Assembly: GCA_964016885.1 (NCBI GenBank)
Contig: OZ024743.1
Coordinates: 139,686,001 to 139,750,000, forward strand
Source: Eledone cirrhosa
Lineage: Eukaryota
Length of the DNA: 64,000 nt
Direction of reading: 5' to 3'
A program made the translations under genes and the position numbers. The notes under the pieces were generated by a model. The model had not been told where the DNA came from and searched no databases. It saw only the letters and a list, made by a program, of their open reading frames with translations. Positions 1-64,000 of the stretch are shown piece after piece (position 1 is the first letter of the stretch; each line of letters starts with the position of its first letter).

Positions 1-1829
1 TCACAAAACACTAATCACCAAGCACCAAGCACCAAACACCGAGCACCAAGCATCAAGCACCAAACACCAAGCAACAAACACCGAGCACCAAGCATCAAGC
101 ACCAAACACCAAGCACCAAGCACCAAACACCAAAACCCAAGCACCAAAGACCAAGCACCAAGCACCAAGGACCAAACACCAAGCAGCAAGCAGCAAGCAC
201 CAAACACCAAACACCAAGCACCAAGCACCAAACACCAAGCACCAAGGACCAAACATCAAACACCAAGCACCAAGCACCAAACACCTAACACCAAGCACCA
301 AGAACCAAGCACCAAGCACCGAACACCAAGCACATAACACCAAGCACCAAACACCAAGCACCAAGCACCAAACACCAAGCACCAAACACCAAGCACCAAG
401 CACCAAGCACCAAACACCAAGCACCATGCACCAAGCACCAAGCCCCAAACACTTAACACCAAGCACCAAGCACCAAGCACCAAACACCAATCACCAAAAA
501 CCAAACACCAAGTACCAAGTACCAAACACCAAGCACCAAGCACCAAACACCAACCACCAAACACAAAGCACCAAGCACCAAGCACCAAGCACCATACACC
601 AAACACCAAGCACCAAACACCAGCCACCATGCACCAAGCACCAAACACCAAACACCAAGCACTAAGCACCAAACACCAAACAACAAGCACCAGCACCAAA
701 CACCAAACACCAAGCACGCATCACCAAGCACCAAGCACCAAGCACCAAACACCAAGCACCAAGCACCAAGCACCAAACACCAAACACCAAACACCAAGCA
801 CCAAGAACCAAACACCAAACACCAAACAGCAAGCAGCAAGCACCAAACACCAAACACCAAGCACCAAGCACCAAATACCAAACACCAAGCACCAAGGACC
901 AAACATCAAACACCAAGCACCAAGCACCAAACGCCTAACACCAAGCACCAAGCACCAAGCACCAATCACCAAACACCAAGCACCAATCACCAAACACCAA
1001 GCACCAAGCACCAAACACCAAGCACCAGGCACCAAGCACCAAACACCAAGCACCAAGCACCAAACTACAAGCACCAAGACCGAAGCACCAAACACCAAGC
1101 ACCAAGCACAAAGCACCAAGCACCAAGCACCAAAAACCAAACACCAAGCACCAAGTACCAAACACCAAGCACCAAGCACCAAACACCAAGCACCAAGCAC
1201 CAATCACCAAACACCAAGAACCAAGCACCAAATACCAAGCACCAAGCACCAAGCACCAGGCACCAAGCACCAAGCACCAAACACAAAACACCAAGCACCA
1301 AGAACCAAGCAGCAAACACCAAGCATCAAACACCAAACACCAAACACCAAGCACCAAACACCAAGCACCAAGCACCAAACACCAAACACCAAGCACCAAG
1401 GACCCAGCACCAAACACCAAACACCAAGCACCAAACACCAGATACCAAGCACCAAGCACCAAACACCAAACTCCAAGCACCAAGCACCAAACACCAAACA
1501 ACAAGCACCAGGCACCAAACACCAAACACCAAGCACCAAGCACCAAACACCAAACACCAAGCACGCAGCATCAAACACCAAGCACCAAGCACCAAGCACC
1601 AAATACCAAGCACCAAGCACCAAACACCAACCACCAAACACAAAGCACCAAGCACCAAACACCAAGCACCAAGCACCAAACACCAAGCACCAAGCACCAA
1701 ACACTAATCACCAAGCACCAAGCACCAAACAACAAGCACCAAGCACCAAGCACTAGGCACCAAGCAGCAAGCACCAAACACTAATCACCAAGCACCAAGC
1801 ACCAAGCACCAAACACCAAGCACCAAGCA

Positions 1830-4110
1830 CCAAACACCAAACACCAAGCACCAAGCACCAAACACCAAGCACCAAGGACCACACATCAAACACCAAGCAC
1901 CAAGCACCAAACACCTAACACCAAGCACCAAGCACCAAGCACCAAGCACCGAACACCAAGCACCAAACACCAAGCACCAAACACCAAGCACCAAGCACCA
2001 AACACCAAGCACCAAACACCAAGCACCAAACACCAAGCACCAAAAACCAAACACCAAGCACCAACTACTAAGAACCAAGCACCAAGCACCAAACACCAAG
2101 CACCAAGCACCAAACACCAAACACCAAGAACCAAGCACCAAACACAAAGCACCAAGGACCAAGCACCAGGCACCAAGCACCAAGCACCAAACACCAAGCA
2201 TCAAACACCAAACACCAAACACCAAGCACCAAACACCAAGCACAAAGCACCAAACACCAAACACCAAGCACAAAGCACCAAACAACAAGCACCAGGCACC
2301 AGGCACCAAGCACCAAACACCAAACACCAAGCACGCAGCATCAAACACCAAGCACCAAGCACAAAGCACCAAACACCAAGCACCAAGCACCAAGCACCAA
2401 GCACCAAACACCAAACACCAAGCACCAAACACCAGCCACCATGCACCAAGCACCAAACACCAAACACCAAGCACTAAGCACCAAACACCAAACAACAAGC
2501 ACCAGGCACCAAGCACCAAACACCAAACACCAAGCACGCATCACCAAGCACCAAGCACCAAGCACCAAACACCAAGCACCAAGCACCAAGCACCAAACAC
2601 CAAACACCAAACACCAAGCACCAAGCACCAAACACCAAGCACCAAACACCAAACCCCAAGCACCAATCACAAAACACTAATCACCAAGCACCAAGCACCA
2701 AACACCGAGCACCAAGCATCAAGCACCAAACACCAAGCACCAAGCACCAAGCACCAAGCACCAAACACCAAACACCAAGCACCAAACACCAAACCCCAAG
2801 CACCAAAGACCAAGCACCAAGCACCAAGGACCAAACACCAAGCACCAAGGACCAAGCAACAAACACCAAGCACCAAGCACCAAACACCCAGCACCAACCA
2901 CCCAGCACCAAGCACCAAGCACCAAACACCAAGCACCAAACACCAAACACCAAGCACCTAGCACCAAGCGCCAAGCACCAAACACCAGCACCAATCACCA
3001 AGGACCAAACACCAAGCAGCAAGCAGCAAGCACCAAACACCAAACACCAAGCACCAAGCACCAAACACCAAGCACCAAGGACCACACATCAAACACCAAG
3101 CACCAAGCACCAAACACCTAACACCAAGCACCAAGCACCAAGCACCAAGCACCGAACACCAAGCACCAAACACCAAGAACCAAACACCAAGCACCAAGCA
3201 CCAAACACCAAGCACCAAACACCAAGCACCAAACACGAAGCACCAAAAACCAAACACCAAGCACCAACTACTAAACACCAAGCACCAAGCACCAAACACC
3301 AAGCACCAAGCACCAAACACCAAACACCAAGAACCAAGCACCAAACACAAAGCACCAAGGACCAAGCACCAGGCACCAAGCACCAAGCACCAAACACAAA
3401 ACACCAAGCACCAAGCACCAAGCAGCAAACACCAAGCATCAAACACCAAACACCAAACACCAAGCACCAAACACCAAGCACAAAGCACCAAACACCAAAC
3501 ACCAAGCACCAAGCACCAAACAACAAGCACCAGGCACCAGGCACCAAGCACCAAACACCAAACACCAAGCACGCAGCATCAAACACCAAGCACCAAGCAC
3601 AAAGCACCAAACACCAAGCACCAAGCACCAAGCACCAAGCACCAAACACCAAACACCAAGCACCAAACACCAGCCACCATGCACCAAGCACCAAACACCA
3701 AACACCAAGCACTAAGCACCAAACACCAAACAACAAGCACCAGGCACCAAGCACCAAACACCAAACACCAAGCACGCATCACCAAGCACCAAGCACCAAG
3801 CACCAAACACCAAGCACCAAGCACCAAGCACCAAACACCAAACACCAAACACCAAGCACCAAGCACCAAACACCAAGCACCAATCACAAAACACTAATCA
3901 CCAAGCACCAAGCACCAAACACCGAGCACCAAGCATCAAGCACCAAACACCAAGCACCAAGCACCAAGCACCAAGCACCAAACACCAAACACCAAGCACC
4001 AAACACCAAACCCCAAACACCAAAGACCAAGCACCAAGCACCAAGGACCAAACACCAAGCACCAAGGACCAAGCAACAAACACCCAGCACCAAGCACCAA
4101 ACACCCAGCA
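1830..4110 (+). repeat. About 1.2-kb tandem HOR pair (offset 1238, then 1217)
   Basis: Identical or near-identical translations at 2201/3439, 2341/3579 and 2441/3679 (offset 1238), and at 2667/3884 and 2681/3898 (offset 1217). 1238 = 177x7-1, matching the 6-mer caccag at 2983. Confidence 0.85.
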
Positions 4111-4419
4111 CCAAGCACCAAGCACCAAACACCAAACACCAAGCACGCAGCATCAAACACCAAGCACCAACCACCAAGCACCAAGCACCAATTACCAAAC
4201 ACCAACCACCAAGCACCAAACACCAAACACCAATCACCAAGCACCAAGCACGAAACACCAGGCACCAAGCACCAAGTACCAAACACCAAACACCAAGCAC
4301 CAAACACCAGCCACCAAGCACCAAGCACCAAACACCAAACACCAAGCACTAAGCACCAAACACCAAACAGCAAGCACCAGGCACCAAGCACCAAACACCA
4401 AGCACCAAGCACCAAACAC

Positions 4420-5130
4420 CAAGCACCAAGACCGAAGCACCAAACACCAAGTACCAAGCACAAAGCACCAAGCACCAAGCACCAAAAACCAAACACGAAG
4501 CACCAAGTACCAAACACCAAGCACCAAGCACCAAACACCAAGCACCAAGCACCAATCACCAAACACCAAGAACCAAGCACCAAACACCAAGCACCAAGCA
4601 CCAAGCACCAGGCACCAAGCACCAAGCACCAAACACAAAACACCAAGCACCAAGAACCAAGCAGCAAACACCAAGCATCAAACACCAAACACCAAACATC
4701 AAGCACCAAACACCAAGCACCAAGCACCAAACACCAAACACCAAGCACCAAGCACCAAGCACCAAACACCAAACACCAAGCACCAAGACCGAAGCACCAA
4801 ACACCAAGCACGAAGCACAAAGCACCAAGCACCAAGCACCAAAAACCAAACACCAAGCACCAAGTACCAAACACCAAGCACCAAGCAGCAAACACCAAGC
4901 ACCAAGCACCAATCACCAAACACCAAGAACCAAGCACCAAACACCAAGCACCAAGCACCAAGCACCAGGCACCAAGCACCAAGCACCAAACACAAAAACC
5001 AAGCACCAAGAACCAAGCAGCAAACACCAAGCATCAAACACCAAACACCAAACACCAAGCACCAAACACCAAGCACCAAGCACCAAACACCAAACACCAA
5101 GCACCAAGCACCAAGCACCAAACACCAAAC
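4420..5130 (+). repeat. 357-bp (51-monomer) tandem duplication
   Basis: The rare monomer accgaag occurs at 4431 and 4788, each followed by the same series of variants (cacaaag, aaccaaa, taccaaa, caccaat, aaccaag, caccagg, cacaaaa). Confidence 0.85.
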
Positions 5131-7254
5131 ACCAAGCACCAAACACCAGATACCAAGCACCAAGCACCAAACACCAAACAACAAGCACCAGGCACCAAAC
5201 ACCAAACACCAAGCACCAAGCACCAAACACCAAACACCAAGCACGCAGCATCAAACACCAAGCACCAAGCACCAAGCACCAAATACCAAGCACCAAGCAC
5301 CAAACACCAACCACCAAACACAAAGCACCAAGCACCAAACACCAAGCACCAAGCAACAAACACCAAGCACCAAGCACCAAACACCAAACCCCAAGCACCA
5401 AGCACCAAACACTAATCACCAAGCACCAAACACCAAACAACAAGCACCAAGCACCAGGCACCATGCAGCAAGCACCAAACACTAATCACCAAGCACCAAG
5501 CACCAAGCACCAAACACCAAGCACCAAGCACCAAACACCAAACACCAAGATCCAAAGACCAAGCACCAAGCCCCAAGCACCAAGCACCAAAAAATAAGCA
5601 CCAAGCACCAAACACCAAGCACCAAGCACCAAACACCAACCACCCAGCACCAAGCACGAAGCACCAAACACCAAGCACCAAACACCAAACACCAAGCACC
5701 AAGCACCAAGCGCCAAACACCAAACACCAAGCCCCAAGCACTAAGCACCAAACACCAAGCCCCAAGCAGCAAGCACCAAACACCAAACACCAAGCACCAA
5801 GCACCAAACACCAAGCACCAAGCACCAAGCACCTAGCACCAAACACCAGACACCAAGCACCAAGCACCAAACACCAATCACCAAGCACCAAACACCAAGC
5901 AGCAAGCAGCAAGCACCAAACACCAAACACCAAGCACCAAGCACCAAACACCAAGCACCAAGGACCACACATCAAACACCAAGCACCAAGCACCAAACAC
6001 CTAACACCAAGCACCAAGCACCAAGCACCAAGCACCGAACACCAAGCACCAAACACCAAGCACCAAACACCAAGCACCAAGCACCAAACACCAAGCACCA
6101 AACACCAAGCACCAAACACCAAGCACCAAAAACCAAACACCAAGCACCAACTACTAAACACCAAGCACCAAGCACCAAAAACCAAGCACCAAGCACCAAA
6201 CACCAAACACCAAGAACCAAGCACCAAACACCAAGCACCAAGGACCAAGCACCAGGCACCAAGCACCAAGCACCAAACACAAAGCACCAAGCACCAAGCA
6301 CCAAGCAGCAAACACCAAGCATCAAACACCAAACACCAAACACCAAGCACCAAACACCAAGCACAAAGCACCAAACACCAAACACCAAGCACCAAGCACC
6401 AAACAACAAGCACCAGGCACCAGGCACCAAGCACCAAACACCAAACACCAAGCACGCAGCATCAAACACCAAGCACCAAGCACAAAGCACCAAACACCAA
6501 GCACCAAGCACCAAGCACCAAGCACCAAACACCAAACACCAAACACCAAGCACCAAGCACCAAACACCAAGCACCAAACACCAAACCCCAAGCACCAATC
6601 ACAAAACACTAATCACCAAGCACCAAGCACCAAACACCGAGCACCAAGCATCAAGCACCAAACACCAAGCACCAAGCACCAAGCACCAAGCACCAAGCAC
6701 CAAACACCAAGCACCAAGCACCAAACACCAAACCCCAAGCACCAAAGACCAAGCACCAAGCACCAAGGACCAAACACCAAGCACCAAGGACCAAGCAACA
6801 AACACCAAGCACCAAGCACCAAACACCCAGCACCAAGCACCAAGCACCAAACACCAAACACCAAGCACGCAGCATCAAACACCAAGCACCAAGCACCAAG
6901 CACCAAGCACCAAGCACCAATTACCAAACACCAACCACCAAGCACCAAACACCAAACACCAATCACCAAGCACCAAGCACGAAACACCAGGCACCAAGCA
7001 CCAAGTACCAAACACCAAACACTAAGCACCAAACACCAGCCACCAAGCACCAAGCACCAAACACCAAGAACCAAGCACCAAACACCAAGCACCAAGCACC
7101 AAGCACCAGGCACCAAGCACCAAGCACCAAACACAAAACACCAAGCACCAAGAACCAAGCAGCAAACACCAAGCATCAAACACCAAACACCAAATACCAA
7201 GCACCAAACACCAAGCACCAAGCACCAAACACCAAACACCAAGCACCAAGCAAA

Positions 7255-10200
7255 AAGCACCAAACACCAAACACCAAGCACCAAACACCAGATACCAAGC
7301 ACCAAGCACCAAACACCAAACTCCAAGCACCAAGCACCAAACACCAAACAACAAGCACCAGGCACCAAACACCAAACACCAAGCACCAAGCACCAAACAC
7401 CAAACACCAAGCACGCAGCATCAAACACCAAGCACCAAGCACCAAGCACCAAATACCAAGCACCAAGCACCAAACACCAACCACCAAACACAAAGCACCG
7501 AGCACCAAACACCAAGCACCAAGCACCAAACACCAAGCACCAAGCACCAAACACCAAACCCCAAGCACCAAGCACCAAACACTAATCACCAAGCACCAAG
7601 CACCAAATAACAAGCACCAAGCACCAAGCACCAGGCACCAAGCAGCAAGCACCAAACACTAATCACCAAGCACCAAGCACCAAGCACCAAACACCAAGCA
7701 CCAAGCACCAAACACCAAACACCAAGATCCAAAGACCAAGCACCAAGCCCCAAGCACCAAGCACCAAAAAACAAGCACCAAGCACCAAACACCAAGCACC
7801 AAGCACCAAACACCAACCACCCAGCACCAAGCACCAAGCACCAAACACCAAGCACCAAACACCAAACACCAAGCACCAAGCACCAAGCGCCAAGCACCAA
7901 ACACCAAGCACCAAGCACTAAGCACCAAATCCAAGCCCCAAGCAGCAAGCACTAAACACCAAACACCAAGCACCAAGCACCAAACACCAAGCACCAAGCA
8001 CCAAGCACCTAGCACCAAACACCAAACACCAAGCACCAAGCACCAAACACCAAGCACCAATCACCAAGCACCAAACACCAAGCAGCAAGCAGCAAGCACC
8101 AAACACCAAGGACCACACATCAAACACCAAGCACAAAGCACCAAACACCTAACACCAAGCACCAAGCACCAAGCACCAAGCACCGAACACCAAGCACCAA
8201 ACACCAAGCACCAAACACCAAGCACCAAGCACCAAACACCAAGCACCAAACACCAAGCACGAAACACCAAGCACCAAAAACCAAACACCAAGCACCAACT
8301 ACTAAACACCAAGCACCAAGCACGAAACACCAAGCACCAAGCACCAAAAACCAAACACCAAGAACCAAGCACCAAACACCAAGCACCAAGGACCAAGCAC
8401 CAGGCACCAAGCACCAAGCACCAAACACAAAACACCAAGCACCAAGCACCAAGCAGCAAACACCAAGCATCAAACACCAAACACCAAACACCAAGCACCA
8501 AACACCAAGCACAAAGCACCAAACACCAAACACCAAGCACCAAACACCAAGCACCAAGCACCAAACACCAAGCACCAAGCACCAAGCACCAAACATCAAA
8601 CACCAAACACCAAGCACCAAGCACCAAACACCAAGCACCAAACACCAAACCCCAAGCACCAATCACAAAACACTAATCACCAAGCACCAAGCACCAAACA
8701 CCGAGCACCAAGCATCAAGCACCAAACACCAAGCACCAAGCACCAAGCACCAAACACCAAGCACCAAGCACCAAACACCAAACCCCAAGCACCAAAGACC
8801 AAGCACCAAGCACCAAGGACCAAACACCAAGCACCAAGGACCAAGCAACAAACACCAAGCACCAAGCACCAAACACCCAGCACCAAGCACCAAGCACCAA
8901 ACACCAAACACCAAGCACGCAGCATCAAACACCAAGCACCAAGCACCAAGCACCAAGCACCAATTACCAAACACCAACCACCAAGCACCAAACACCAAAC
9001 ACCAATCACCAAGCACCAAGCACGAAACACCAGGCACCAAGCACCAAGTACCAAACACCAAACACCAAGCACCAAACACCAGCCACCAAGCACCAAGCAC
9101 CAAACACCAAACACCAAGCACTAAGCACCAAACACCAAACAGCAAGCACCAGGCACCAAGCACCAAACACCAAACACCAAGCACGCAGCACCAAACACCA
9201 AGCACCAAGCACCAAGCACCAAACACCAAGCACCAAGCACCAAGCACCAAACACCAAAACCAAGCACCAAGCACCAAGAATCAAACACCAAACACCAAAC
9301 AGCAAGCACCAAGCACCAAACACCAAGCACCAAACACCAAACACCAAGCACTAAGCACCAAACACCAAACAACAAGCACCAGGCACCAAGCACCAAACAC
9401 CAAACACCAAGCACGCAGCACCAAACACCAAGCACCAAGTACCAAACACCAAACACCAAGCACCAAGCACCAAGCACCAAACACCAAACACCAAACACCA
9501 AGCACCAAGAACCAGACACCAAACACCAAACAGCAGGCACCAAGCACCAAACACCAAGCACCAATCACCAAATACTAATCACCAAGCACCAAGCCCCAAA
9601 CACCAAGCACCAAGCAGCAAGCACCAAACACCAAGCACCAAGCACCAAACACCAAGCACCAAACACCAAGCACCAAGCACCAAACACCAAACCCCAAGCA
9701 CCTAACACCAAGCACCAAGCACCAAGGACCAAAAACCAAGCACCAAGCACCAAACACCAAACACCAAACAACAAGCATCAAGCACCAAACAGCAAGCACC
9801 AAACACCAAGCACCAAACACCAAGCACCAAACACAAAGTCCCACGCACCAAGCACCAAACACCAAACACCAAGCACCAAGCACCAAACACCAAGCACCAA
9901 GCACCAAGCCCCTAGCACCAAACACCAAACACCAAGCAAAAACCACAAAACATCAAGCACCAATCACCAAGCACCAAACACCAAGCAGCAAGCAGCAAGC
10001 ACCAAACACGAACGACCAAGCACCAAGCACCAAGTACCAAACACCAAGCACCAAGGACCAAACATCAAACACCAAGCACCAAGCACCAAACGCCTAACAC
10101 CAAGCACCAAGCACCAAGCACCAAGCACCAAACACCAAGCACCAATCACCAAACACCAAGCACCAAGCACCAAACACCAAGCACCAGGCACCAAGCAGCA

Positions 10201-13200
10201 AACACCAAGCACCAAGCACCAATCCCCAAGCACCAAACACCAAACCTCAAGCACCAAGCACAAAACACTAATCACCAAGCACCAAGCACCAAACAACAAG
10301 CACCAAGCACCAAGCACCAGGCACCAAGCACCAAGCACCAAACACTAATCACCAAGCACCAAGTACCAAACACCAAACACCAAGCACCAAACACCAAACA
10401 CCAAGCACCAATCACCAAGCACGAAACACCAGGCACCAAGCACCAAGCACCAAACACCAAACGCCAAGCACCATACACCAGCCACCAAGCAGCAAGCACC
10501 AAACACCAAACACCAAGCACTAAGCACCAAACACCAAACAACAAGCACCAGGCACCAAGCACCAAACACCAAACACCAAGCACGCATCACCAAACACCAA
10601 GCACCAAGCACCAAGCACCAAAAACCAAGCACCAAGCACCAAGCACCAAAAACCAAACACCAAACACCAAGCACCAAGAACCAAACACCAAACACCAAAC
10701 AGCAAGCACCAAGCACCAAACACCAAGCACCAAACACCAAACACCAAGCACCAAACACCAGATACCAAGCACCAAGCACCAAACACCAAACTCCAAGCAC
10801 CAAGCACCAAACACCAAACAACAAGCACCAGGCACCAAACACCAAACACCAAGCACCAAGCACCAAACACCAAACACCAAGCACGCAGCATCAAACACCA
10901 AGCACCAAGCACCAAGCACCAAATACCAAGCACCAAGCACCAAACACCAACCACCAAACACAAAGCACCGAGCACCAAACACCAAGCACCAAGCACCAAA
11001 CACCAAGCACCAAGCACCAAACACCAAACCCCAAGCACCAAGCACCAAACACTAATCACCAAGCACCAAGCACCAAATAACAAGCACCAAGCACCAAGCA
11101 CCAGGCACCAAGCAGCAAGCACCAAACACTAATCACCAAGCACCAAGCACCAAGCACCAAACACCAAGCACCAAGCACCAAACACCAAACACCAAGATCC
11201 AAAGACCAAGCACCAAGCCCCAAGCACCAAGCACCAAAAAACAAGCACCAAGCACCAAACACCAAGCACCAAGCACCAAACACCAACCACCCAGCACCAA
11301 GCACCAAGCACCAAACACCAAGCACCAAACACCAAACACCAAGCACCAAGCACCAAGCGCCAAGCACCAAACACCAAGCACCAAGCACTAAGCACCAAAT
11401 CCAAGCCCCAAGCAGCAAGCACTAAACACCAAACACCAAGCACCAAGCACCAAACACCAAGCACCAAGCACCAAGCACCTAGCACCAAACACCAAACACC
11501 AAGCACCAAGCACCAAACACCAAGCACCAATCACCAAGCACCAAACACCAAGCAGCAAGCAGCAAGCACCAAACACCAAACACCAAGCACCAAGCACCAA
11601 ACACCAAGCACCAAGGACCACACATCAAACACCAAGCACAAAGCACCAAACACCTAACACCAAGCACCAAGCACCAAGCACCAAGCACCGAACACCAAGC
11701 ACCAAACACCAAGCACCAAACACCAAGCACCAAGCACCAAACACCAAGCACCAAACACCAAGCACGAAACACCAAGCACCAAAAACCAAACACCAAGCAC
11801 CAACTACTAAACACCAAGCACCAAGCACGAAACACCAAGCACCAAGCACCAAAAACCAAACACCAAGAACCAAGCACCAAACACCAAGCACCAAGGACCA
11901 AGCACCAGGCACCAAGCACCAAGCACCAAACACAAAACACCAAGCACCAAGCACCAAGCAGCAAACACCAAGCATCAAACACCAAACACCAAACACCAAG
12001 CACCAAACACCAAGCACAAAGCACCAAACACCAAACACCAAGCACCAAACACCAAGCACCAAGCACCAAACACCAAGCACCAAGCACCAAGCACCAAACA
12101 TCAAACACCAAACACCAAGCACCAAGCACCAAACACCAAGCACCAAACACCAAACCCCAAGCACCAATCACAAAACACTAATCACCAAGCACCAAGCACC
12201 AAACACCGAGCACCAAGCATCAAGCACCAAACACCAAGCACCAAGCACCAAGCACCAAACACCAAGCACCAAGCACCAAACACCAAACCCCAAGCACCAA
12301 AGACCAAGCACCAAGCACCAAGGACCAAACACCAAGCACCAAGGACCAAGCAACAAACACCAAGCACCAAGCACCAAACACCCAGCACCAAGCACCAAGC
12401 ACCAAACACCAAACACCAAGCACGCAGCATCAAACACCAAGCACCAAGCACCAAGCACCAAGCACCAATTACCAAACACCAACCACCAAGCACCAAACAC
12501 CAAACACCAATCACCAAGCACCAAGCACGAAACACCAGGCACCAAGCACCAAGTACCAAACACCAAACACCAAGCACCAAACACCAGCCACCAAGCACCA
12601 AGCACCAAACACCAAACACCAAGCACTAAGCACCAAACACCAAGCACCAAGCACCAAGCACCAAACACCAAGCACCAAGCACCAAGCACCAAACACCAAA
12701 ACCAAGCACCAAGCACCAAGAATCAAACACCAAACACCAAACAGCAAGCACCAAGCACCAAACACCAAGCACCAAACACCAAACACCAAGCACTAAGCAC
12801 CAAACACCAAACAACAAGCACCAGGCACCAAGCACCAAACACCAAACACCAAGCACGCAGCACCAAACACCAAGCACCAAGTACCAAACACCAAACACCA
12901 AGCACCAAGCACCAAGCACCAAACACCAAACACCAAACACCAAGCACCAAGAACCAGACACCAAACACCAAACAGCAGGCACCAAGCACCAAACACCAAG
13001 CACCAATCACCAAACACTAATCACCAAGCACCAAGCCCCAAACACCAAGCACCAAGCAGCAAGCACCAAACACCAAGCACCAAGCACCAAACACCAAGCA
13101 CCAAACACCAAGCACCAAGCACCAAACACCAAACCCCAAGCACCTAACACCAAGCACCAAGCACCAAGGACCAAAAACCAAGCACCAAGCACCAAACACC

Positions 13201-14170
13201 AAACACCAAACAACAAGCATCAAGCACCAAACAGCAAGCACCAAACACCAAGCACCAAACACCAAGCACCAAACACAAAGTCCCACGCACCAAGCACCAA
13301 ACACCAAACACCAAGCACCAAGCACCAAACACCAAGCACCAAGCACCAAGCCCCTAGCACCAAACACCAAACACCAAGCAAAAACCACAAAACATCAAGC
13401 ACCAATCACCAAGCACCAAACACCAAGCAGCAAGCAGCAAGCACCAAACACGAACGACCAAGCACCAAGCACCAAATACCAAACACCAAGCACCAAGTAC
13501 CAAACATCAAACACCAAGCACCAAGCACCAAACGCCTAACACCAAGCACCAAGCACCAAGCACCAAGCACCAAACACCAAGCACCAATCACCAAACACCA
13601 AGCACCAAGCACCAAACACCAAGCACCAGGCACCAAGCAGCAAACACCAAGCACCAAGCACCAATCCCCAAGCACCAAACACCAAACCTCAAGCACCAAG
13701 CACAAAACACTAATCACCAAGCACCAAGCACCAAACAACAAGCACCAAGCACCAAGCACCAGGCACCAAGCACCAAGCACCAAACACTAATCACCAAGCA
13801 CCAAGTACCAAACACCAAACACCAAGCACCAAACACCAAACACCAAGCACCAATCACCAAGCACGAAACACCAGGCACCAAGCACCAAGCACCAAACACC
13901 AAACGCCAAGCACCATACACCAGCCACCAAGCAGCAAGCACCAAACACCAAACACCAAGCACTAAGCACCAAACACCAAACAACAAGCACCAGGCACAAA
14001 GCACCAAACACCAAACACCAAGCACGCATCACCAAACACCAAGCACCAAGCACCAAGCACCAAAAACCAAGCACCAAGCACCAAGCACCAAAAACCAAAC
14101 ACCAAACACCAAGCACCAAGAACCAAACACCAAACACCAAACAGCAAGCACCAAGCACCAAACACCAAGC
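7255..14170 (+). repeat. About 3.5-kb tandem HOR pair (offsets 3470/3505/3442)
   Basis: Matching ORFs at 7586/11056, 8663/12168, 9565/13007 and 9964/13406. Both copies share the 6-mers tccaag (7930/11400) and accaag (9259/12701). Confidence 0.9.
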
Positions 14171-14419
14171 ACCAAACACCAAACCCCAAGCACCAATCAC
14201 CAAACACTAATCACCAAGCACCAAGCACCAAACACCGAGCACCAAACACCAGGCACCAAGCACCAAACACCAAACCCCAACCACCATAGACCAAGCACCA
14301 AGCACCAAAGAACAAACACCAAGCACCAAGCACCAAGCACCAAACACCAAGCACCAAGCACCAAACACCCAGCACCAAGCACCAGCCACCAAGCACCAAG
14401 CACCAAACACCAAACACCA

Positions 14420-28600: not shown

Positions 28601-28619
28601 GCACCAAGCACCAAACACC

Positions 28620-52600: not shown

Positions 52601-55252
52601 GCAGCAAGCAGCAAGCACCAAACACCAAACACCAAGCACCAAGCACCAAACACCAAGCACCAAGGACCAAACATCAAACACCAAGCACCAAGTACCAAAC
52701 ACCTAACACCAAGCACCAAGCACCAAGCACCAAGCACCGAACACCAAGCACATAACACCAAGCACCAAACACCAAGCACCAAGCACCAAACACCAAGCAC
52801 CAAACACCAAGCACCAAGCACCAAACACCAACCACCCAGCACCAAGCACCAAGCACCAAACACCAGGCACCAAACACTAAACACCAAACACCAAGCACCA
52901 AGCACCAAGCACCAAACACCAAGCACCAAGCACTAAGCACCAAACACCAAGCTCCAAGCACCAAGCACCAAACACCAAACACCAAGCACCAAGCACCAAA
53001 CACCAAGCACCAAGCACCATGCACCTAGCACCAAACACCAAACACCAAGCACCAAGCACCAAACACCAAGCACCAATCACCAAGCACCAAACACCAAGCA
53101 GCAAGCAGCAAGCACCAAACACCAAACACCAAGCACCAAGCACCAAACACCAAGCTCCAAGGACCAAACATCAAACACCAAGCACCAAGCACCAAACACC
53201 TAACACCAAGCACCAAGCACCAAGCACCAAGCACCGAACACCAAGCACATAACACCAAGCACCAAACACCAAGCACCAAGCACCAAACACCAAGCACCAA
53301 ACACCAAGCACCAAGCACCAAGCACCAAACACCAAGCACCAGGCACCAAGCACCAAACACCAAGCACCATGCACCAAGCACCAAGCCCCAAACACTTAAC
53401 ACCAAGCACCAAGCACCAAGCACCAAACACCAATCACCAAAAACCAAACACCAAGCACCAAGTACCAAACACCAAGCACCAAGCACCAAACACCAAGCAC
53501 CAAGCACCAATCACCAAACACCAAGAACCAAGCACCATACACCAAGCACCAAGCACCAAGGACAAGGCACCAAGCACCAAGCAGCAAACACCAAGCATCA
53601 AACACCAAACACCAAACACCAAGCACCAAACACCAAGCACCAAGCACCAAACACCAAACACCAGGCACCAAGCACCAAGAACCAAACAACAAACACCAAG
53701 CACCAAACACCAGATATCAAGCACCAAGCACCAAACACCAAACACCAAGCACCAAGCACCAAACACCAAACAACAAGCACCAGGCACCAAGCACCAAACA
53801 CCAAACACCAAGCACCAAACACCAAGCACCAAGCACCAAACACCAAACCACAAGCACCAAACACCAAACCCCAAGCACCAAACACCAAACACCAAACACC
53901 AAGCACGCAGCATCAAAGACCAAGCACCAAGCACCAAGCACCAAACACCAAGCACCAAGCACCAAATACCAAGCACCAAACACAAAGCACCAAGCACCAA
54001 ACACCAAGCACCAAGCACCAAACACCAAGCACCAAGCACCAAACACCAAACCACAAGCACCAAACACCAAACCCCAAGCACCAAGCACCAAACACTAATC
54101 ACCAAGCACCAAGCACCAAACAACAAGCACCAAGCACCAAACACCAGGCACCAAGCACCAAGCACCAAACACTAATCACCAAGCACCAAGCACCAAGCAC
54201 CAAACACCATGCACCAAGCACCAAGCACCAAAAACCAAGAACCAAGCACCAAACACCAAACACCAAGATCCAAACACCAAGCACCAAGCACCAAGCACCA
54301 ACCACCCAGCACCAAGCACCAAGCACCAAACACCAAGCACCAAACACCAAGCACCAAGCACCAAGCACCAAGCACCAAACACCAAGCACCAAGCACTAAG
54401 CACCAAACACCAAGCCCCAAGTACCAAGCACCAAACACCAAACACCCAGCACCAAGCACCAAGCACCAAACACCAGGCACCAAACACTAAACACCAAACA
54501 CCAAGCACCAAGCACCAAGCACCAAACACCAAGCACCAAGCACTAAGCACCAAACACCAAGCTCCAAGCACCAAGCACCAAACACCAAACACCAAGCACC
54601 AAGCACCAAACACCAAGCACCAAGCACCATGCACCTAGCACCAAACACCAAACACCAAGCACCAAAGACCAAGCACGAAGCACCAAGCACCAAGCACCAA
54701 ACAATAAGCACCAAGCACCAAGCACCAAACACCAAGCACCAAACACCAAGCCCCAAGCACCAAGCACCAAACACCAAACACCAAGCACCAAGCACCAAAC
54801 ACCAAGCACCAAGCACCATGCACCTAGCACCAAACACCAAACACCAAGCACCAAGCACCAAACACCAAGCACCAATCACCAAGCACCAAACACCAAGCAG
54901 CAAGCAGCAAGCACCAAACACCAAACACCAAGCACCAAGCACCAAACACCAAGCACCAAGGACCAAACATCAAACACCAAGCACCAAGCACCAAAAACCT
55001 AACACCAAGCACCAAGCACCAAGCACCAAGCACCGAACACCAAGCACATAACACCAAGCACCAAACACCAAGCACCAAGCACCAAACACCAAGCACCAAA
55101 CACCAAGCACCAAGCACCAAGCACCAAACACCACGCACCAGGCACCAAGCACCAAACACCAAGCACCATGCACCAAGCACCAAGCCCCAAACACTTAACA
55201 CCAAGCACCAAGCACCAAGCACCAAACACCAATCACCAAAAACCAAACACCA
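33571..55252 (+). repeat. Large near-identical tandem duplication (offsets 9820, 11955 and 11864)
   Basis: About 35153-43388 is repeated at about 47017-55252 (offset 11864; many identical ORFs such as 35507/47371, 38043/49907, 41505/53369, 42765/54629). About 33571-34580 recurs at +11955, and its first ~800 bp also at +9820. Confidence 0.95.
42055..46343 (+). repeat. 2135-bp (305-monomer) essentially perfect tandem duplication
   Basis: Identical ORFs at 42235/44370, 42345/44480, 42765/44900, 42960/45095, 43304/45439 and 43782/45917. The flanking mismatches I located are at 42054 and 46344. Confidence 0.93.
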
Positions 55253-57370
55253 AGCGCCAAGTACCAAACACCAAGCACCAAGCACCAAACACCAAGCACC
55301 AAGCACCAATCACCAAACACCAAGAACCAAGCACCATACACCAAGCACCAAGCACCAAGGACCAGGCACCAAGCACCAAGCCGCAAACACCAAGCATCAA
55401 ACACCAAACACCAAACACCAAGCACCAAACACCAAGCACCAAGCACCAAACACCAAACACCAAGCACCAAGCACCAAGCACCAAACAACAAACACCAAGC
55501 ACCAAACACCAGATATCAAGCACCAAGCACCAAACACCAAACACCAAGCACCAAGCACCAAACACCAAACAACAAGCACCAGGCACCAAGCACCAAACAC
55601 CAAACACCAAGCACCAAGCACCAAACACCAAGCACCAAGGACCAAACATCAAACACCAAGCACCAAGCACCAAACACCTAACACCAAGCACCAAGCACCA
55701 AGCACCGAACACCAAGCACATAACACCAAGCACCAAACACCAAGCACCAAGCACCAAACACCAAGCACCAAACACCAAGCACCAAGCACCAAGCACCATG
55801 CACCAAGCACCAAGCCCCAAACACTTAACACCAAGCACCAAGCACCAAGCACCAAACACCAATCACCAAAAACCAAACACCAAGCACCAAGCACCAAACA
55901 CAAAACACCAAGCACCAAGCACCAAGCAGCAAACACCAAGCATCAAACACCAAACACCAAACACCAAGCACCAAACACCAAGCACCAAGCACCAAACACC
56001 AAACACTAAGCACCAAGCACCAAGCACCAAACAACAAACACCAAGCACCAAACACCAGATATCAAGCACCAAGCACCAAACACCAAACACCAAGCACCAA
56101 GCACCAAACACCAAACAACAAGCACCAGGCACCAAACACCAAACACCAAACACCAAGCACCAAGCACCAAACACCAAACACCAAGCACGCAGCATCAAAC
56201 ACCAAGCACCAAGCACCAAGCACCAAACACCAAGCACCAAGCACCAACACCAAGCACCAAACACAGAGCACCAAGCACCAAACACCAAGCACCAAGCACC
56301 AAACACCAAGCACCAAGCACCAAACACCAAACCACAAGCACCAAACACCAAACCCCAAGCACCAAGCACCAAACACTAATCACCAAGCACCAAGCACCAA
56401 ACAACAAGCACCAAGCACCAAGCACCAGGCACCAAGCACCAAGCACCAAACACTAATCACCAAGCACCAAGCACCAAGCACCAAACACCAAGCACCAAGC
56501 ACCAAGCACAAAACACCAAGCACCAAGCACCAAACACCGAACACCAAGCACCAATGACCAAGCACGAAGCACCACGCACCAAGCACCAAACAATAAGCAC
56601 CAAGCACCAAGCACCAAACACCAAGCACCAAACACCAAGCCCCAAGCACCAAGCACCAAACACCAAACACCAAGCACCAAGCACCAAACACCAAGCACCA
56701 AGCACCATGCACCTAGCACCAAACACCAAACACCAAGCACCAAGCACCAAACACCAAACACCAATCACCAAGCACCAAATACCAAGCAGCAAGCAGCAAG
56801 CACCAAACACCAAACACCAAGCACCAAGCACCAAACACCAAGCACCAAGGACCAAACATCAAACACCAAGCACCAAGTACCAAACACCTAACACCAAGCA
56901 CCAAGCACCAAGCACCAAGCACCGAACACCAAGCACATAACACCAAGCACCAAACACCAAGCACCAAGCACCAAACACCAAGCACCAAACACCAAGCACC
57001 AAGCACCAAACACCAACCACCCAGCACCAAGCACCAAGCACCAAACACCAGGCACCAAACACTAAACACCAAACACCAAGCACCAAGCACCAAGCACCAA
57101 ACACCAAGCACCAAGCACTAAGCACCAAACACCAAGCTCCAAGCACCAAGCACCAAACACCAAACACCAAGCACCAAGCACCAAACACCAAGCACCAAGC
57201 ACCATGCACCTAGCACCAAACACCAAACACCAAGCACCAAGCACCAAACACCAAGCACCAATCACCAAGCACCAAACACCAAGCAGCAAGCAGCAAGCAC
57301 CAAACACCAAACACCAAGCACCAAGCACCAAACACCAAGCTCCAAGGACCAAACATCAAACACCAAGCAC
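50430..57370 (+). repeat. 4227-bp tandem HOR; second copy partial with a 42-bp (6-monomer) deletion
   Basis: ORF pairs 50597/54824 and 50941/55168 (4227), then 51678/55863, 52369/56554 and 52877/57062 (4185). The 6-mer caccaa is at 52057 and 56242. Confidence 0.9.
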
Positions 57371-60300
57371 CAAGCACCAAGCACCAAGCACCAAACACCA
57401 AGCACCAAGCACCAAGCACCAAGCCCCAAGCAGCAAGCACCAAACACCAAGCAACAAGCACCAAACACCAAGCACCAAGCACCAATCACCAAGCACCAAA
57501 CACCAAGCACCAAAAAATAAGCACCAAGCACCAAACACCAAGCACCAAGCACCAAACACCAACCACCCGGCACCAAGCACCAAGCACCAAACACCAAGCA
57601 CCAAACACCAAACACCAAGCACCAAGCACCATCGCCAAGCACCAAACACCAAGCACCAAGCACTAAGCACCAAACACCAAGCACCAAGCACCAAACACCA
57701 AGCACCAGGCACCAAGCACCAAACACCAAGCACCTAGCACCAAACACCAAACACCAAGCACCAAGCACCTAGCACCAAACACCAAACACCAAGCACCAAG
57801 CACCAAACACCAAGCACCAATCACCAAGCACCAAACACCAAGCAGCAAGCACCAAGCACAAAGCACCAAACACCAAGCACCAGGCACCAAGCACCAAACA
57901 CCAAGCACCATGCACCAAGCACCATGCCCCAAACACTTAACACCAAGCACCAAGCACCAAACACCAAGCACCAAAAACCAAACACCAAGCACCAACTACT
58001 AAACACCAAGCACCAAACACCAAACACCAAACATCAAACACCAAACACCAAACACCAAGCACCAAACACCAAGCACCAAGCACCAAACTCCAAACACCAA
58101 GCACCAAGCACCAAACAACAAGCACCAAGCACCAAACACCAAACACCAAGCACGCAGCATCAAACACCAAGCACCAAGCACCAAGCACCAAACACCAAGC
58201 ACCAAGCACCAAGCACCAAACACCAAACAACAAGCACCAGGCCCCAAGCAGCAAACACGAAACACCAAGCACGCATCACCAAGCACCAAGCACCAAACAC
58301 CAAACACCTAACACCAAGCACCAAGAACCAAACACCAAACACCAAACAGCAAGCACCAAGCACCAAACACCAAGCACCAAACACCAAACACCAAGCACCA
58401 ATCACAAAACACTAATCACCAAGCACCAAGCACCAAACACCGAGCACCAAGCATCAAGCACCAAACACCAAGCACCAAGCACCAAGAACCAAGCACCAAA
58501 CACCAAGCACCAAGCACCAAACACCAAACCCCAAGCACCAAGGACCAAGCAACAAACACCAAGCACCAAGCACCAAACACCCAGCACCAAGCACCAAGCA
58601 CCAGGCACCAAGCACCAAACACCAAACACCAAGCACGCAGCAACAAACAGCAAGCACCAAGCACCAAGCACCAAACACCAAGCACCAAGCACCATGCACC
58701 AAGTACCAAACACCAAACACCAAGCACCAAACACCAAACACCAGGCACCAAGCACCAAGCACGAAAGACCATGCACCAAGCACCAAGCACCAAACACCAA
58801 ACACCAAGCACCAAACACCAGCCACGAAGCACCAAGCAGCAAACACCAAACACCAAGCACTAAGCACCAAAAACCAAACAACAAGCACCAGGCACCAAGC
58901 ACCAAAAACCAAATACCAAGCACGCAGCACCAAACACCAAGCACCAAGCACCAAGCACCAAACACCAAACAACAAGCACCAGGTACCAAGCACCAAACAC
59001 CAAACACCAAGTACCAAGCACCAAACACCAAACACCAAGCACCAAGCACCAAACACCAAGCACCAATCACCAAGCACCAAACACCAAGCAGCAAGCAGCA
59101 AGCACCAAACACCAAACACCAAGCACCAAGCACCAAACACCTAACACCAAGCACCAAGCACCAAGCACCAAGCACCGAACACCAAGCACCAAACACCAAG
59201 CACCAAACACCAAGCACCAAGCACCAAACACCAAGCACCAAACACCAAGCACCAAGCACCAAGCACCAAACACCAAGCACCAGGCACCAAGCACCAAACA
59301 CCAAGCACCATGCACCAAGCACCAAGCCCCAAACACTTAACACCAAGCACCAAGCACCAAAAACCAAACACCAAGCACCAACTACTAAACACCAAGCACC
59401 AAGCACCAAACACCAAGCACCAAGCACCAATCACCAAACACCAAGAACCAAGCACCAAACACCAAGCACCAAGGACCAAGCACCAGGCACCAAGCACAAA
59501 GCACCAAACACAAAACACTAAGCACCAAACACAAAACACCAAGCACCAAGCACCAAGCAGCAAACACCAAGCATCAAACACCAAACACCAAACACCAAGC
59601 ACCAAACACCAAGCACCAAGCAGCAAACACCAAACACCAAGCACCAAGCACCAAGCACCAAACACCAAACACCAAGCACCAAACACCAAACAACAAGCAC
59701 CAGGCACCAAGCACCAAAAACCAAACACCAAGCACGCAGCATCAAACAGCAAGCACCAAGCACCAAGCACCAAACACCAAGCACCAAGCACCAAGCACCA
59801 AGTACCAAACACCAAACACCAAGCACCAAACACCAAACACCAGGCACCAAGCACCAAGCACGAAACACCATGCACCAAGCACCAAGCACCAAACACCAAA
59901 CACCAAGCACCAAAAACCAGCCACCAAGCACCAAGCAGCAAACACCAAACACCAAGCACTAAGCACCAAAAACCAAACAACAAACACCAGGCACCAAGCA
60001 CCAAAAACCAAACACCAAGCACGCAGCACCAAACTCCAAGCACCAAGCACCAAACACCAAGCACCAAGCACCAAGCACCAAACACCAAACACCAAACACC
60101 AAGCACCAAGAACCAAACACCAAACACCAAACCCTAATCACCAAGCACCAGGCACAAAACACCAAGCACCAAGCAGCAAGCACCAAACACCAAGCACCAA
60201 GCACCAATCACCAAACACCAAGAACCAAGAACCAAACACCAAGCACCAAGGACCAAGCACCAGGCACCAAGCACAAAGCACCAAACACAAAACACTAAGC

Positions 60301-63300
60301 ACCAAACACAAAACACCAAGCACCAAGCACCAAGCAGCAAACACCAAGCATCAAACACCAAACACCAAACACCAAGCACCAAACACCAAGCACCAAGCAG
60401 CAAACACCAAACACCAAGCACCAAGCACCAAGCACCAAACACCAAACACCAAGCACCAAACACCAAACACCAAGCACCAAGCACCAAACACCAAACAACA
60501 AGCACCAGGCACCAAGCATCAAGCACCAAACACCAAACACCAAGCACCAAACACCAGCCACCAAGCACCAAGCAGCAAACACCAAACACCAAGCACTAAG
60601 CACCAAAAACCAAACGACAAACACCAGGCACCAAGCACCAAAAACCAAACACCAAGCACGCAGCACCAAACACCAAGCACCAAGCACCAAACACCAAACA
60701 CCAAACACCAAGCACCAAGAACCAAACACCAAACACCAAAACCTAAACACCAAGCACCAAGCACCAAACACCAAACACCAAACACCAGAAACCAAGCACC
60801 AAACACCAAACACCAAACACCAAGCACCAAGCACCAAACACCAAGCACCAAGCACCAAACAGCAAACCCCAAGCACCAAGCACCAAACACCACACAACAA
60901 GCACCAAACACCAAGAACCAGGCACCAAGCACCAAGCACCAAACACAAAAAACCAAGCACCAAACACCAAACACCAAGCACTAAGCACCAAGCACCAAGC
61001 ACCAAACTCCAAGCACCCAGCAGCAAACACCAAACACCAAGCACCAAACACCAAACAACAAGCACCAGGTACCAAGCACCAAACACCAAAAACCAAGCAC
61101 CAAGCACCAAACACCAAGCACCAAGCACCAAGCACCAAACACCAAACACCAAACACCAAACAGCAAAAACCAAATACGAAACAGCAAACACCATACAGCA
61201 AACACCAAACACCAAAAAGCAGACAACAAACAGCTAACACCAAACACCAAACACCAGACACCAAACACCAAGCACCAAGCACCAACCACCAAACCCCAAG
61301 CACCAATCAACAAACACTAATCACGAAGCACCAAGCACCAAACACCAAGCACCAAGCACCAAGCACCAAACACCAAGCACCAAGCACCAAGCACAAAACA
61401 CCAAGCACCAAACAACAAGCACCAAGCACCAAGCACCAAACACCAAGCACCAAGCACCAAACACCAACCACCCAGCACCAAACACCAAGCACCAAGTACC
61501 AAACACCAAACACCAAGCACCAAACACCAAACACCAAACACCAAGCACCAAGCACCTAGCACGAAACACCATGCACCAAGCACCAAGCACCAAACACCAA
61601 ACACCAAGCACCAAACACCAGCCACGAAGCACCAAGCACCAAACACCAAACACCAAGCACTAAGCACCAAAAACCAAACAACAAGCACCAGGCACCAAGC
61701 AGCAAACACCAAGCATCAAACACCAAACACCAAACACCAAGCACCAAACACCAAGCACCAAGCAGCAAACACCAAACACCAAGCACCAAGCACCAAGCAC
61801 CAAACACCAAACACCAAGCACCAAACACCAAACACCAAGCACCAAGCACCAAACACCAAACAACAAGCACCAGGCACCAAGCACCAAACACCAAACACCA
61901 AGCACGCAGCATCAAACAGCAAGCACCAAGCACCAAGCACCAAACACCAAGCACCAAGCACCAAGCACCAAGTACCAAACACCAAACACCAAGCACCAAA
62001 CACCAAACACCAGGCACCAAGCACCAAGCACGAAACACCATGCACCAAGCACCAAGCACCAAACACCAAACACCAAGCACCAAACACCAGCCACCAAGCA
62101 CCAAGCAGCAAACACCAAACACCAAGCACTAAGCACCAAAAACCAAACAACAAACACCAGGCACCAAGCACCAAAAACCAAACACCAAGCACGCAGCACC
62201 AAACACCAAGCACCAAGCACCAAACACCAAGCACCAAGCACCAAGCACCAAACACCAAACACCAAACACCAAGCACCAAGAACCAAACACCAAACACCAA
62301 ACCCTAATCACCAAGCACCAAGCACAAAACACCAAGCACCAAGCAGCAAGCACCAAACACCAAGCACCAAGCACCAAGCACCAAACACCAAACACCAAGC
62401 ACCAAGCACCAAACACCAAACCCCAAGCACCAAAGTCCAAGCACCAAGCACCAAGAACCAAACACCAAGCACCAAGCACCAAGCACCAAACACCAAGCAC
62501 CAAGCACCAAACACCCAGCCCCAAGCACCAAGCACCAAACACCAAGCACCAAGCACCAAACACCAAGCACCAAACACCAAGCACCAAGCACCAAACAGCA
62601 AGCACCAAACACCAAACAGCAAACATCAAACAGCAAACACCAAACACCTAACAGCAAACAGCAAACGCCAAACACCAAACACCAAGCACAAAACACCAAA
62701 CACCTAGCACCAAGGACCAAACATCAAACACCAAGCACCAAACACCAAACACCAAACACCAAGCACCAAACACCAAACACCAGGCACCAAGCACCAAACA
62801 CCAAGCGCCATGCACCAAACACCAAGCACCAAGCACGAAGCACCAAACACCAAGCACCAAGCACCAAACACTTAACACCAAGCACCAAGCACCAAGCACC
62901 AAACACCAAGCACCAAACACTAAGCACCAAGCACCAAGTACATACACCAAGAACCAAACACAAAACACCAAGCACCAAGCAACAAGCATCAAACACCAAG
63001 CATCAAACACCATACACAAAGCACCAAGCACCGAAACACCAAACACCAAGAACCAAGCACCAAGCACCAAGCACAAACATCAAGCACCCAGCACCAAACA
63101 GCATGCACCAAGCACCAAGCACCAAACACAGAGCACCAAACACCAAACACCAAGCACCAAACACCAAACACCAAGCACCAAGCACCAAAACCCAAACACC
63201 AAGCACCAAGCACCAAACACCAAACACCAAACACCAGAAACCAAGCACCAAACACCAAACACCAAACACCAAGCACCAAGCACCAAACACCAAGCACCAA

Positions 63301-63335
63301 GCACCAAACAGCAAACCCCAAGCACCAAGCACCAA
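57370..63335 (+). repeat. Diverged satellite island with internal 2170-bp and 777-bp offset repeats
   Basis: Higher density of private variants (for example 61150-61330 and 62600-63130). ORF pairs 59742/61912, 59959/62129 and 60134/62304 (2170). The cacaaaa-cactaag-caccaaa-cacaaaa motif is at about 59509 and 60286 (777). Confidence 0.8.
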
Positions 63336-64000
63336 ACACTAATCACCAAGCACCAAGCACCAAGCACCAAACACCAAGCACCAAGCACCAAGCACAAAAC
63401 ACCAAGCACCAAGCACCAAACACCGAACACCAAGCACCAATGACCAAGCACGAAGCACCACGCACCAAGCACCAAACAATAAGCACCAAGCACCAAGCAC
63501 CAAACACCAAGCACCAAACACCAAGCCCCAAGCACCAAGCACCAAACACCAAACACCAAGCACCAAGCACCAAACACCAAGCACCAAGCACCATGCACCT
63601 AGCACCAAACACCAAACACCAAGCACCAAGCACCAAACACCAAACACCAATCACCAAGCACCAAATACCAAGCAGCAAGCAGCAAGCACCAAACACCAAA
63701 CACCAAGCACCAAGCACCAAACACCAAGCACCAAGGACCAAACATCAAACACCAAGCACCAAGTACCAAACACCTAACACCAAGCACCAAGCACCAAGCA
63801 CCAAGCACCGAACACCAAGCACATAACACCAAGCACCAAACACCAAGCACCAAGCACCAAACACCAAGCACCAAACACCAAGCACCAAGCACCAAACACC
63901 AACCACCCAGCACCAAGCACCAAGCACCAAACACCAGGCACCAAACACTAAACACCAAACACCAAGCACCAAGCACCAAGCACCAAACACCAAGCACCAA
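63336..64000 (+). repeat. Copy of about 56450-57114 (offset 6886), truncated by the window end
   Basis: Identical ORFs at 56453/63339, 56457/63343, 56554/63440 and 56713/63599. Confidence 0.92.

What the first reader, a model, noticed from the sequence alone, without database searches (positions are those of the whole stretch)
1..64000. A 7-bp satellite with nested higher-order repeats up to about 12 kb
Seen: the order of G- and A-ending heptamers and rare variants is copied at periods of 77, 189, 357, 385, 406, 497, 588, 777, 1176, 1238, 2135, 2170, 2428, 2562, about 2700, 3458, about 3500, 3745, 4227, about 6300, 6886, 9820 and 11864 bp. Each exact period is a multiple of 7, or a multiple of 7 minus the single-base deletions it contains. 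Known: layered HORs are typical of long-monomer centromeric satellites (primate alpha satellite, Arabidopsis CEN178), while very short repeats usually evolve by slippage into pure runs. Inference: this array grows mostly by kb-scale unequal exchange or break-induced replication, so it is a candidate centromere-type satellite built from a tiny monomer. I do not recognise it as a described family.
Basis: partly seen in the sequence, partly recalled or inferred. Interest (0 to 1): 0.75.

Follow-up and report, generated by a model that had tools for sequence, protein, structure and literature searches.

The report
Giant 7-bp satellite, serially duplicated
This window is part of one 14.6-million-base block of a seven-letter repeat on a single chromosome of a likely octopus-type animal; its nested spacings are real but are mostly one-off duplications, likely made by DNA repair copying several thousand bases at a time, and it is unlikely to be the animal's general centromere repeat.

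Summary
The window is a pure CACCAAR array of 9,144 monomers, with 532 exact repeats of 20 or more monomers against 0 in 11 controls. 21 of 23 claimed spacings were recovered. They are not iterated higher-order periods: over 600 spacings exist and no ungapped unit above 100 bp reaches three copies. The window lies in a 14.6-Mb block on contig C4 of a 3.0-Gb mollusc genome (octopod-type hemocyanin); 122 of 123 rare-word hits genome-wide fall there. Nesting continues to megabases: one inversion junction is copied ten times, and the window has a paralogue 2.64 Mb away at 0.48% divergence. Between these copies, 22 events above 700 bp carry 87% of the gapped bases; 62 slippage-sized events carry 1.4%. 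That supports kb-scale homology-directed growth. It cannot be the general centromere repeat; a C4-only centromere stays open (about 0.2). Closest known: human HSat2/3 nested repeats and heterogeneous CEN178 HORs. I found no paper on the motif. The scan had already noted this array's copied junction and similar architecture in other satellites of this genome.

The parts
1..64000 (+). Uninterrupted CACCAAR (R = G or A) satellite, 9,144 monomers; G000:C4:139,686,001-139,750,000, inside a block spanning C4:128,822,858-143,422,346
35153..55248 (+). 11,864-bp duplication: about 35153-43384 recurs at about 47017-55248 (1,176 monomers, 99.5% identical); 33564-34592 recurs at 45519 (distance 11,955). 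Both copies map to one stretch of the paralogue, so it likely postdates the megabase duplication
42061..46337 (+). Perfect 2,135-bp tandem duplication (306 identical monomers), nested in the 11.9-kb event
21337..26678 (+). 2,562-bp tandem duplication, 2.08 copies, 9 substituted monomers of 397
7258..14240 (+). About 3.5-kb tandem duplication (distances 3,470, 3,505 and 3,442 after small whole-monomer indels)
18719..28570 (+). About 6.3-kb-spaced duplicate pair overlapping the 1,176-, 2,562- and 3,745-bp events
19818..21966 (+). 1,176-bp-spaced duplicate (139 monomers, 2 differences)
50412..57375 (+). About 4.2-kb-spaced duplicate pair (distances 4,227 and 4,185)
56437..64000 (+). 6,886-bp duplication whose second copy starts at 63323 and runs beyond the window end
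4410..5137 (+). Older 357-bp tandem duplication (89% of monomers identical)
34579..35334 (+). 406-bp-spaced duplicate (50 identical monomers)

Best explanation
This is a single-locus, 14.6-Mb simple-sequence satellite, likely non-centromeric heterochromatin, whose nested spacings are mostly two-copy duplications likely made by homology-directed repair (most likely replication-based copying with template switching) rather than a fixed higher-order unit. Shown: two 7-bp monomers plus point variants act as a barcode; pieces of 0.4-12 kb are copied next to themselves in phase; megabase blocks carrying one old inversion junction are copied too, some flipped; slippage of 1-5 monomers occurs but moves few bases. 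Inferred: any 7-bp register offers homology, so the size of an event is set by the repair tract and not by the monomer; gains outnumber losses among large events, which favours break-induced replication over reciprocal unequal exchange; the block is passive heterochromatin like human HSat3.
For: 93% of window monomers lie in a segment duplicated within the window. A causal parse gives 138 segments; 78% of monomers have their best source 1-13 kb upstream at 0.4-0.6% divergence, and none under 350 bp. Paralogue 2.64 Mb away: 151 kb versus 105 kb between the same anchors, an 85-kb collinear core, 405 differences (0.48%). Gaps of 1-5 monomers: 62 events, 1.2 kb; 6-100 monomers: 51 events, 9.8 kb; over 100 monomers: 22 events, 75 kb, of which 19 of 22 match their own flanks better than the paralogue (a shuffled control aligned 1 monomer). 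Ten head-to-head junctions at 130.4-142.9 Mb share the same flanks, 8 in one orientation and 2 flipped. Single locus: 46 of 47 and 76 of 76 hits of two rare words lie in the block; density-based genome total 17 Mb (range 12-27). C4 has a separate multi-satellite cluster at 205.4-212.2 Mb with a 25-bp family shared with C2 and a 196-bp family shared with C1. Arabidopsis mutation-accumulation lines show periodicity-preserving kb indels with an insertion bias (10.1101/2025.06.02.657473, passages).
Against: No chromatin data, so 'non-centromeric' is inferred. The block has traits also seen at active centromeres: it is large, no insertion over 63 bp was found in 703 kb from 94 in-array stretches, it turns over fast, and it sits at 34-38% of the chromosome. 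One pair of paralogues cannot separate break-induced replication from unequal exchange followed by biased survival. Event counts depend on gap penalties (83-85 kb core) and nested events may be merged. No raw long reads were examined. I did not show that the 205-212 Mb cluster is a centromere or that its families occur on most chromosomes.
Confidence: 0.68

Rival explanations
1. The block is the functional, chromosome-specific centromere (or one pericentromere flank) of C4, built on a 7-bp monomer.
For: 14.6 Mb, the largest array I saw on C4; free of insertions in 703 kb sampled; kb-scale dynamics like Arabidopsis centromeres. Satellite families can be segregated on different chromosomes (10.64898/2026.09.17.752431, section 6). 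Drosophila centromeric satellites are 5-12 bp (PMC8122249, passage). The array holds a roughly 100-kb island with the 25-bp family at 140.04-140.14 Mb.
Against: No large array on any other chromosome. A second satellite cluster nearer the middle of C4 shares families with C1 and C2. HORs also occur in non-centromeric maize knobs, and HSat3 forms the largest human arrays yet is contrasted with centromeric satellites (abstract).
Confidence: 0.2
2. The seed was made by a telomerase-like or retroelement reverse transcriptase that writes YTTGGTG with one variable position; recombination then amplified it.
For: The G-rich strand is telomere-like (by eye; resemblance to 7-bp telomere repeats recalled). 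Two 1.1-kb islands on C3 and C17 are purer (87-88% consensus monomers versus 65-81% in three array controls) and share at most 115-118 bp with the sampled array; the C3 island sits between the back-to-back arms of an element that looks Penelope-like.
Against: None of six contig ends fetched carries the repeat, and none of the 123 rare-word hits is terminal. Only about 5% of the array was sampled, so the islands may be copies of unsampled parts. Pfam did not confirm the Penelope domains. This concerns origin only, not the nesting.
Confidence: 0.07
3. The nested duplications are assembly artefacts.
For: One duplication (2,135 bp) is perfect. A 57-kb island at C4:205.36-205.42 Mb starts at a 200-N gap and repeats the 140.0-Mb edge, so some mis-scaffolding is possible.
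Against: Most pairs carry substitutions and whole-monomer indels, graded from 89% to 100% identical monomers. The 180 kb and 120 kb compared hold no N. Junction copies differ by point changes.
Confidence: 0.04
4. It is a regimented, alpha-satellite-type HOR array with fixed nested units.
For: A 28-bp rhythm remains in the G/A order.
Against: No ungapped unit above 100 bp reaches three copies; over 600 distances occur; the paralogue has different spacings.
Confidence: 0.01

Closest known systems
Human HSat2/HSat3 nested tandem repeats (10.1101/2021.07.12.452052, passages read)
   Same: Tiny ancestral monomer; arrays of 13-28 Mb; multi-kb nested units that vary along the array; many strand switches (over 200 in HSat3B5 and beta satellite together); outside the alpha-satellite centromere core.
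   Different: Unrelated sequence. Here the 7-bp phase is almost intact (17 of 9,144 units off length) and units are not iterated. It is one locus, in a mollusc.
Arabidopsis CEN178 heterogeneous HORs (10.64898/2026.09.17.752431, sections 6 and 25; 10.1101/2025.06.02.657473, passages)
   Same: Paired blocks at irregular spacing; phase-preserving kb-scale indels; insertion bias; similar upper size (indels up to 11,570 bp in those lines, 11,864 bp here).
   Different: Monomer 25 times shorter; not present on every chromosome; no CENH3 evidence; no transposon insertions seen; repeated megabase inversions.
Tribolium madens macro-dyad satellite arrays (PMC13081366, abstract and passages)
   Same: Conserved inversion junctions present in many copies within megabase satellite regions.
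   Different: There, thousands of junctions with tens-of-kb arms, likely on all chromosomes; here about ten, 0.09-2.8 Mb apart, at one locus.
Maize knobs (PMC13011684, abstract)
   Same: Non-centromeric arrays with HORs and megabase similarity blocks.
   Different: Longer monomers (recalled); role in meiotic drive, for which there is no evidence here.
Drosophila simple satellites, including D. virilis AAACTAC (search listing only; PMC8122249 passage)
   Same: Very short, in D. virilis 7-bp, monomers in large (peri)centromeric blocks.
   Different: Different sequence. The main D. virilis paper was not held, so I could not compare internal structure.

Membership tests
Regimented HOR satellite (alpha-satellite type) | A fixed n-mer iterated many times with long-range periodicity | tested here: not met
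   At most 2.08 ungapped copies; 646 distances; no full-length multiples
Heterogeneous HOR satellite (CEN178 type, TRASH definition) | Paired blocks of >=4 near-identical contiguous monomers at irregular spacing | tested here: met
   716 segments scoring >=20, covering 93% of monomers; none reaches 20 in 3 shuffles (best score 16)
Heterogeneous HOR satellite (CEN178 type, TRASH definition) | Zipf-like variant frequencies | tested here: met
   log-log r2 0.92 over 118 variants; weak, generic feature
HSat2/3-type nested tandem repeat | Simple ancestral monomer with kb-scale units that vary along the array | tested here: met
   works like it, but the units are rarely iterated
HSat2/3-type nested tandem repeat | (CATTC)n ancestry in primates | tested here: not met
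   Monomer is CACCAAR; host is a mollusc
General centromeric satellite | One major array on each or most chromosomes | tested here: not met
   122 of 123 rare-word hits in one block; no C1 hit among the first 100 of 9,447 position-sorted hits
Centromeric satellite (general or C4-specific) | CENP-A occupancy or location at the primary constriction | not testable with these tools
   No ChIP, methylation, Hi-C or cytology data
Centromeric satellite (general or C4-specific) | Invasion by centrophilic transposons | tested here: inconclusive
   No insertion over 63 bp in 703 kb; about 5% of the array sampled
Telomeric repeat | Located at chromosome ends | tested here: not met
   Absent from 6 of 6 ends fetched (C2, C4, C17), which also lack TTAGGG arrays and may be incomplete; no terminal hits
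Described repeat family (Dfam, Repbase) | Database match | not testable with these tools
   No repeat database offered; paper searches found no satellite with this motif

The most novel reading that the evidence does not exclude
The size of satellite duplications is set by the repair machinery and not by the monomer: a 7-bp repeat in a mollusc shows the same 1-12 kb gain-biased spectrum as 178-bp Arabidopsis centromeres. Its ten megabase copies form a natural mutation-accumulation experiment with 7-bp breakpoint resolution, and the block may be the working centromere of one giant cephalopod chromosome.
Probability: 0.2. Interest if true: 0.7.

Novelty: new member of a known kind. Interest (0 to 1): 0.38.

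Why it matters
How satellite arrays grow (slippage, unequal exchange or break-induced replication) is an old question. This array gives a direct count in a cephalopod: about one duplication or deletion above 700 bp per 18 substitutions, mostly gains, with slippage negligible by length. It also warns that nested repeats do not mark centromeres. My searches found no paper on cephalopod centromere DNA, so a CENP-A test on this block would be informative either way.

Tried and rejected
Sequencing-run search: three runs of one sample hold 0.69-0.73 of the words and may be the assembly's source, so they are not independent support. Other organisms and marine metagenomes hold 0.06-0.24, about the share of variant-free words (0.21 of positions). 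No reads were laid, so these rows show neither relatives, habitat nor transcription. A Silene lead (PMC13638503, passages) was a primer match. Coding potential: rejected, 118-258 stops per frame. Slippage as the main driver: rejected; pure runs are at most 5 G or 4 A monomers, and rare variants are enriched only 2.3-fold at lag 1 and mostly at or below baseline at lags 2-10. A first global alignment without a match reward failed and was redone. The free-jump alignment overstates events because of redundant paralogues, so I quote the collinear one. A divergent H3 exon at C8:25.229 Mb (59% to H3) looks CENP-A-like by recalled motifs, but the 60 best solved-structure hits shown (of 176) are all H3 and Pfam gives only Histone over cut-off: inconclusive. 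Whole-word motif search: 18 papers, none on a satellite by title or abstract start. The centromere atlas main text has no 'octopus', 'cephalopod', 'mollus' or '7 bp', but its family list is in a supplement I could not see.

Full report
Observation. The window is one array of CACCAAR: 9,144 monomers, 44.1% CACCAAG, 28.6% CACCAAA, 118 variants, 17 units off length in 12 distinct contexts. Exact repeats of 20 or more monomers number 532, against 0 in 5 shuffles and 6 Markov controls. Of the 23 claimed spacings, 21 carry a duplicated segment; 77 and 189 bp do not exceed chance. The spacings are distances between pairs: 646 distinct distances, five near-tandem segments, at most 2.08 copies, and no full-length multiples among the 25 longest. 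In the terms of the centromere atlas this is heterogeneous, not regimented, HOR structure (10.64898/2026.09.17.752431; abstract and sections 6, 19, 25 read). A damped 28-bp rhythm in the G/A order suggests an older 3-4-monomer unit (inference).

Host and extent. The window is C4:139,686,001-139,750,000 of a 3.0-Gb assembly with four sequences of 379-443 Mb and much shorter ones after them. Mollusc-type hemocyanin is present, three genes on C1 with seven units each; that seven units is the octopod type is recalled. The array runs from 128,822,858 to 143,422,346. All 40 spot samples listed are array; two further spots at 140.05 and 140.10 Mb are not and lie in an inclusion of about 100 kb (140,036,371-140,136,676) of unique DNA, a 12-bp repeat and a 25-bp satellite. 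Two rare monomer words give 46 of 47 and 76 of 76 hits in the block. A common word gives 9,447 hits, or about 17 Mb by density, range 12-27. Small islands lie on C2 (250.86-250.92 and from 251.13 Mb, within the 25-bp satellite), C4 (205.36-205.42 Mb, starting at a gap and repeating the 140.0-Mb edge), C3 and C17 (1.1 kb each).

Megabase nesting. Ten head-to-head junctions lie between 130.4 and 142.9 Mb. All share the same flanking monomer strings, eight in one orientation and two flipped, with point differences, so they are copies of one junction. Other switch points exist that my patterns missed, for example between 131.66 and 131.72 Mb; two earlier notes count eleven copies. A tail-to-tail junction 76 kb before the window has a copy 2,642,557 bp upstream, and the sequence behind it is collinear with the window.

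Mechanism. Between shared anchors the window's copy is 151 kb and the paralogue 105 kb. A collinear alignment finds an 85-kb core with 405 differences (0.48%), 88 gaps (66 kb) on the window side and 47 gaps (20 kb) on the other. By size: 62 gaps of 1-5 monomers (1.2 kb), 51 of 6-100 (9.8 kb), 22 above 100 monomers (75 kb, 87%). 19 of those 22 match their own flanks better than the paralogue, as expected of duplications after the split. A stiffer gap penalty gives 83 kb and the same divergence. Both copies of the 11,864-bp event map to one stretch of the paralogue. Parsed against upstream DNA, 78% of window monomers have their best source 1-13 kb away and none under 350 bp. Shown, then: kb-scale, in-phase, mostly gain events dominate length change, and slippage is frequent but small. 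Inferred: homology-directed repair, most likely break-induced replication with template switching, given the gain bias and flipped megabase copies. Arabidopsis lines show periodicity-preserving kb indels, and the authors offer the same mechanism (10.1101/2025.06.02.657473, passages). Unequal exchange with biased survival is not excluded by one pair.

Centromere. A single-locus repeat cannot be the centromere satellite of a genome with more than 25 chromosome-sized sequences. C4 also has a cluster at 205.4-212.2 Mb of 25-, 37-, about 59-, 55-, 99- and 196-bp repeats, with 4 of 14 spot samples not dominated by a satellite. One 25-bp variant has 18 hits on C2, 21 in that cluster and 1 in the inclusion. 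The 196-bp motif has 2,917 hits, the first 100 at C1:280 Mb. I did not show that these families are centromeric. HORs occur in non-centromeric maize knobs (PMC13011684, abstract). For a C4-only centromere: size, no insertion over 63 bp in 703 kb of 94 in-array stretches (the inclusion left out), fast turnover, a plausible position, and short centromeric satellites in Drosophila (PMC8122249 and PMC11917152, passages). Molluscs have CENP-A (PMC12210499, passages). I put this rival at 0.2.

Comparison and novelty. It works like human HSat2/3, which derive from a 5-bp unit, form 13-28 Mb arrays, carry multi-kb nested repeats that vary locally, and in HSat3B5 many strand switches (10.1101/2021.07.12.452052, passages). 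It is not a member of that family. Conserved multi-copy inversion junctions are known from Tribolium (PMC13081366, passages). Searches for the motif and for cephalopod satellites found no description, judged by titles and abstract starts. The atlas supplement and repeat databases were out of reach, so 'undescribed' is provisional. Verdict: a real, probably undescribed satellite of a known architecture, with an unusually clean internal record of duplication sizes. Interest 0.38.

Noticed in passing
G000:C3:4,193,071-4,194,164 (L047:5071-6164): A 1.09-kb CACCAAR island sits exactly between the back-to-back arms of an element that looks Penelope-like by recalled motifs (not confirmed by Pfam); it may have been captured during insertion.
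   Followed up: partly
G000:C17:26,914,676-26,915,773 (L048): A 1.1-kb island follows a 210-bp A-rich tract and is followed by a fold-back element with an (AT)n centre.
   Followed up: partly
L043:5578 (C2) and L155:6676 (C4:140,136,676): Junctions between CACCAAR and the 25-bp satellite are seamless and use short shared words (CCAAG in L155), suggesting microhomology joins.
   Followed up: partly
G000:C4:205.36-205.55 Mb versus 139.9-140.1 Mb: Same array edge, unique flank (96% identical) and 25-bp satellite, starting at a 200-N gap: a segmental duplication or a misplaced haplotype.
   Followed up: partly
G000:C4:205.4-212.2 Mb; C2:244-251.2 Mb; C1:280 Mb: Satellite clusters at 55-63% of three giant chromosomes, with degenerate TAACCC at C2:251.2 Mb; candidates for centromeres or fusion sites.
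   Followed up: partly
G000:C8:25,229,004-25,229,231 (L157:4004-4231, minus): Divergent H3 exon, a possible CENP-A; database searches were inconclusive.
   Followed up: partly
C4 plus-strand samples at 129.9, 131.5, 133.08, 134.33, 136.0, 138.8 and 140.65 Mb: A more diverged layer (63-70% consensus monomers, rich in CAGCAA) recurs in these samples, five of them 0.1-0.2 Mb before a junction copy, hinting at a repeating megabase unit.
   Followed up: partly
G000:C4:100.0 and 127.0 Mb (L001, L005): Further tandem repeats of 20 bp and 28 bp; the 28-bp one lies 1.8 Mb from the array's left edge.
   Followed up: no
G000:C1:173.7-173.9 Mb and C26:21.9-22.0 Mb: Three tandem seven-unit hemocyanin genes on C1 and an inverted pair on C26.
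   Followed up: no
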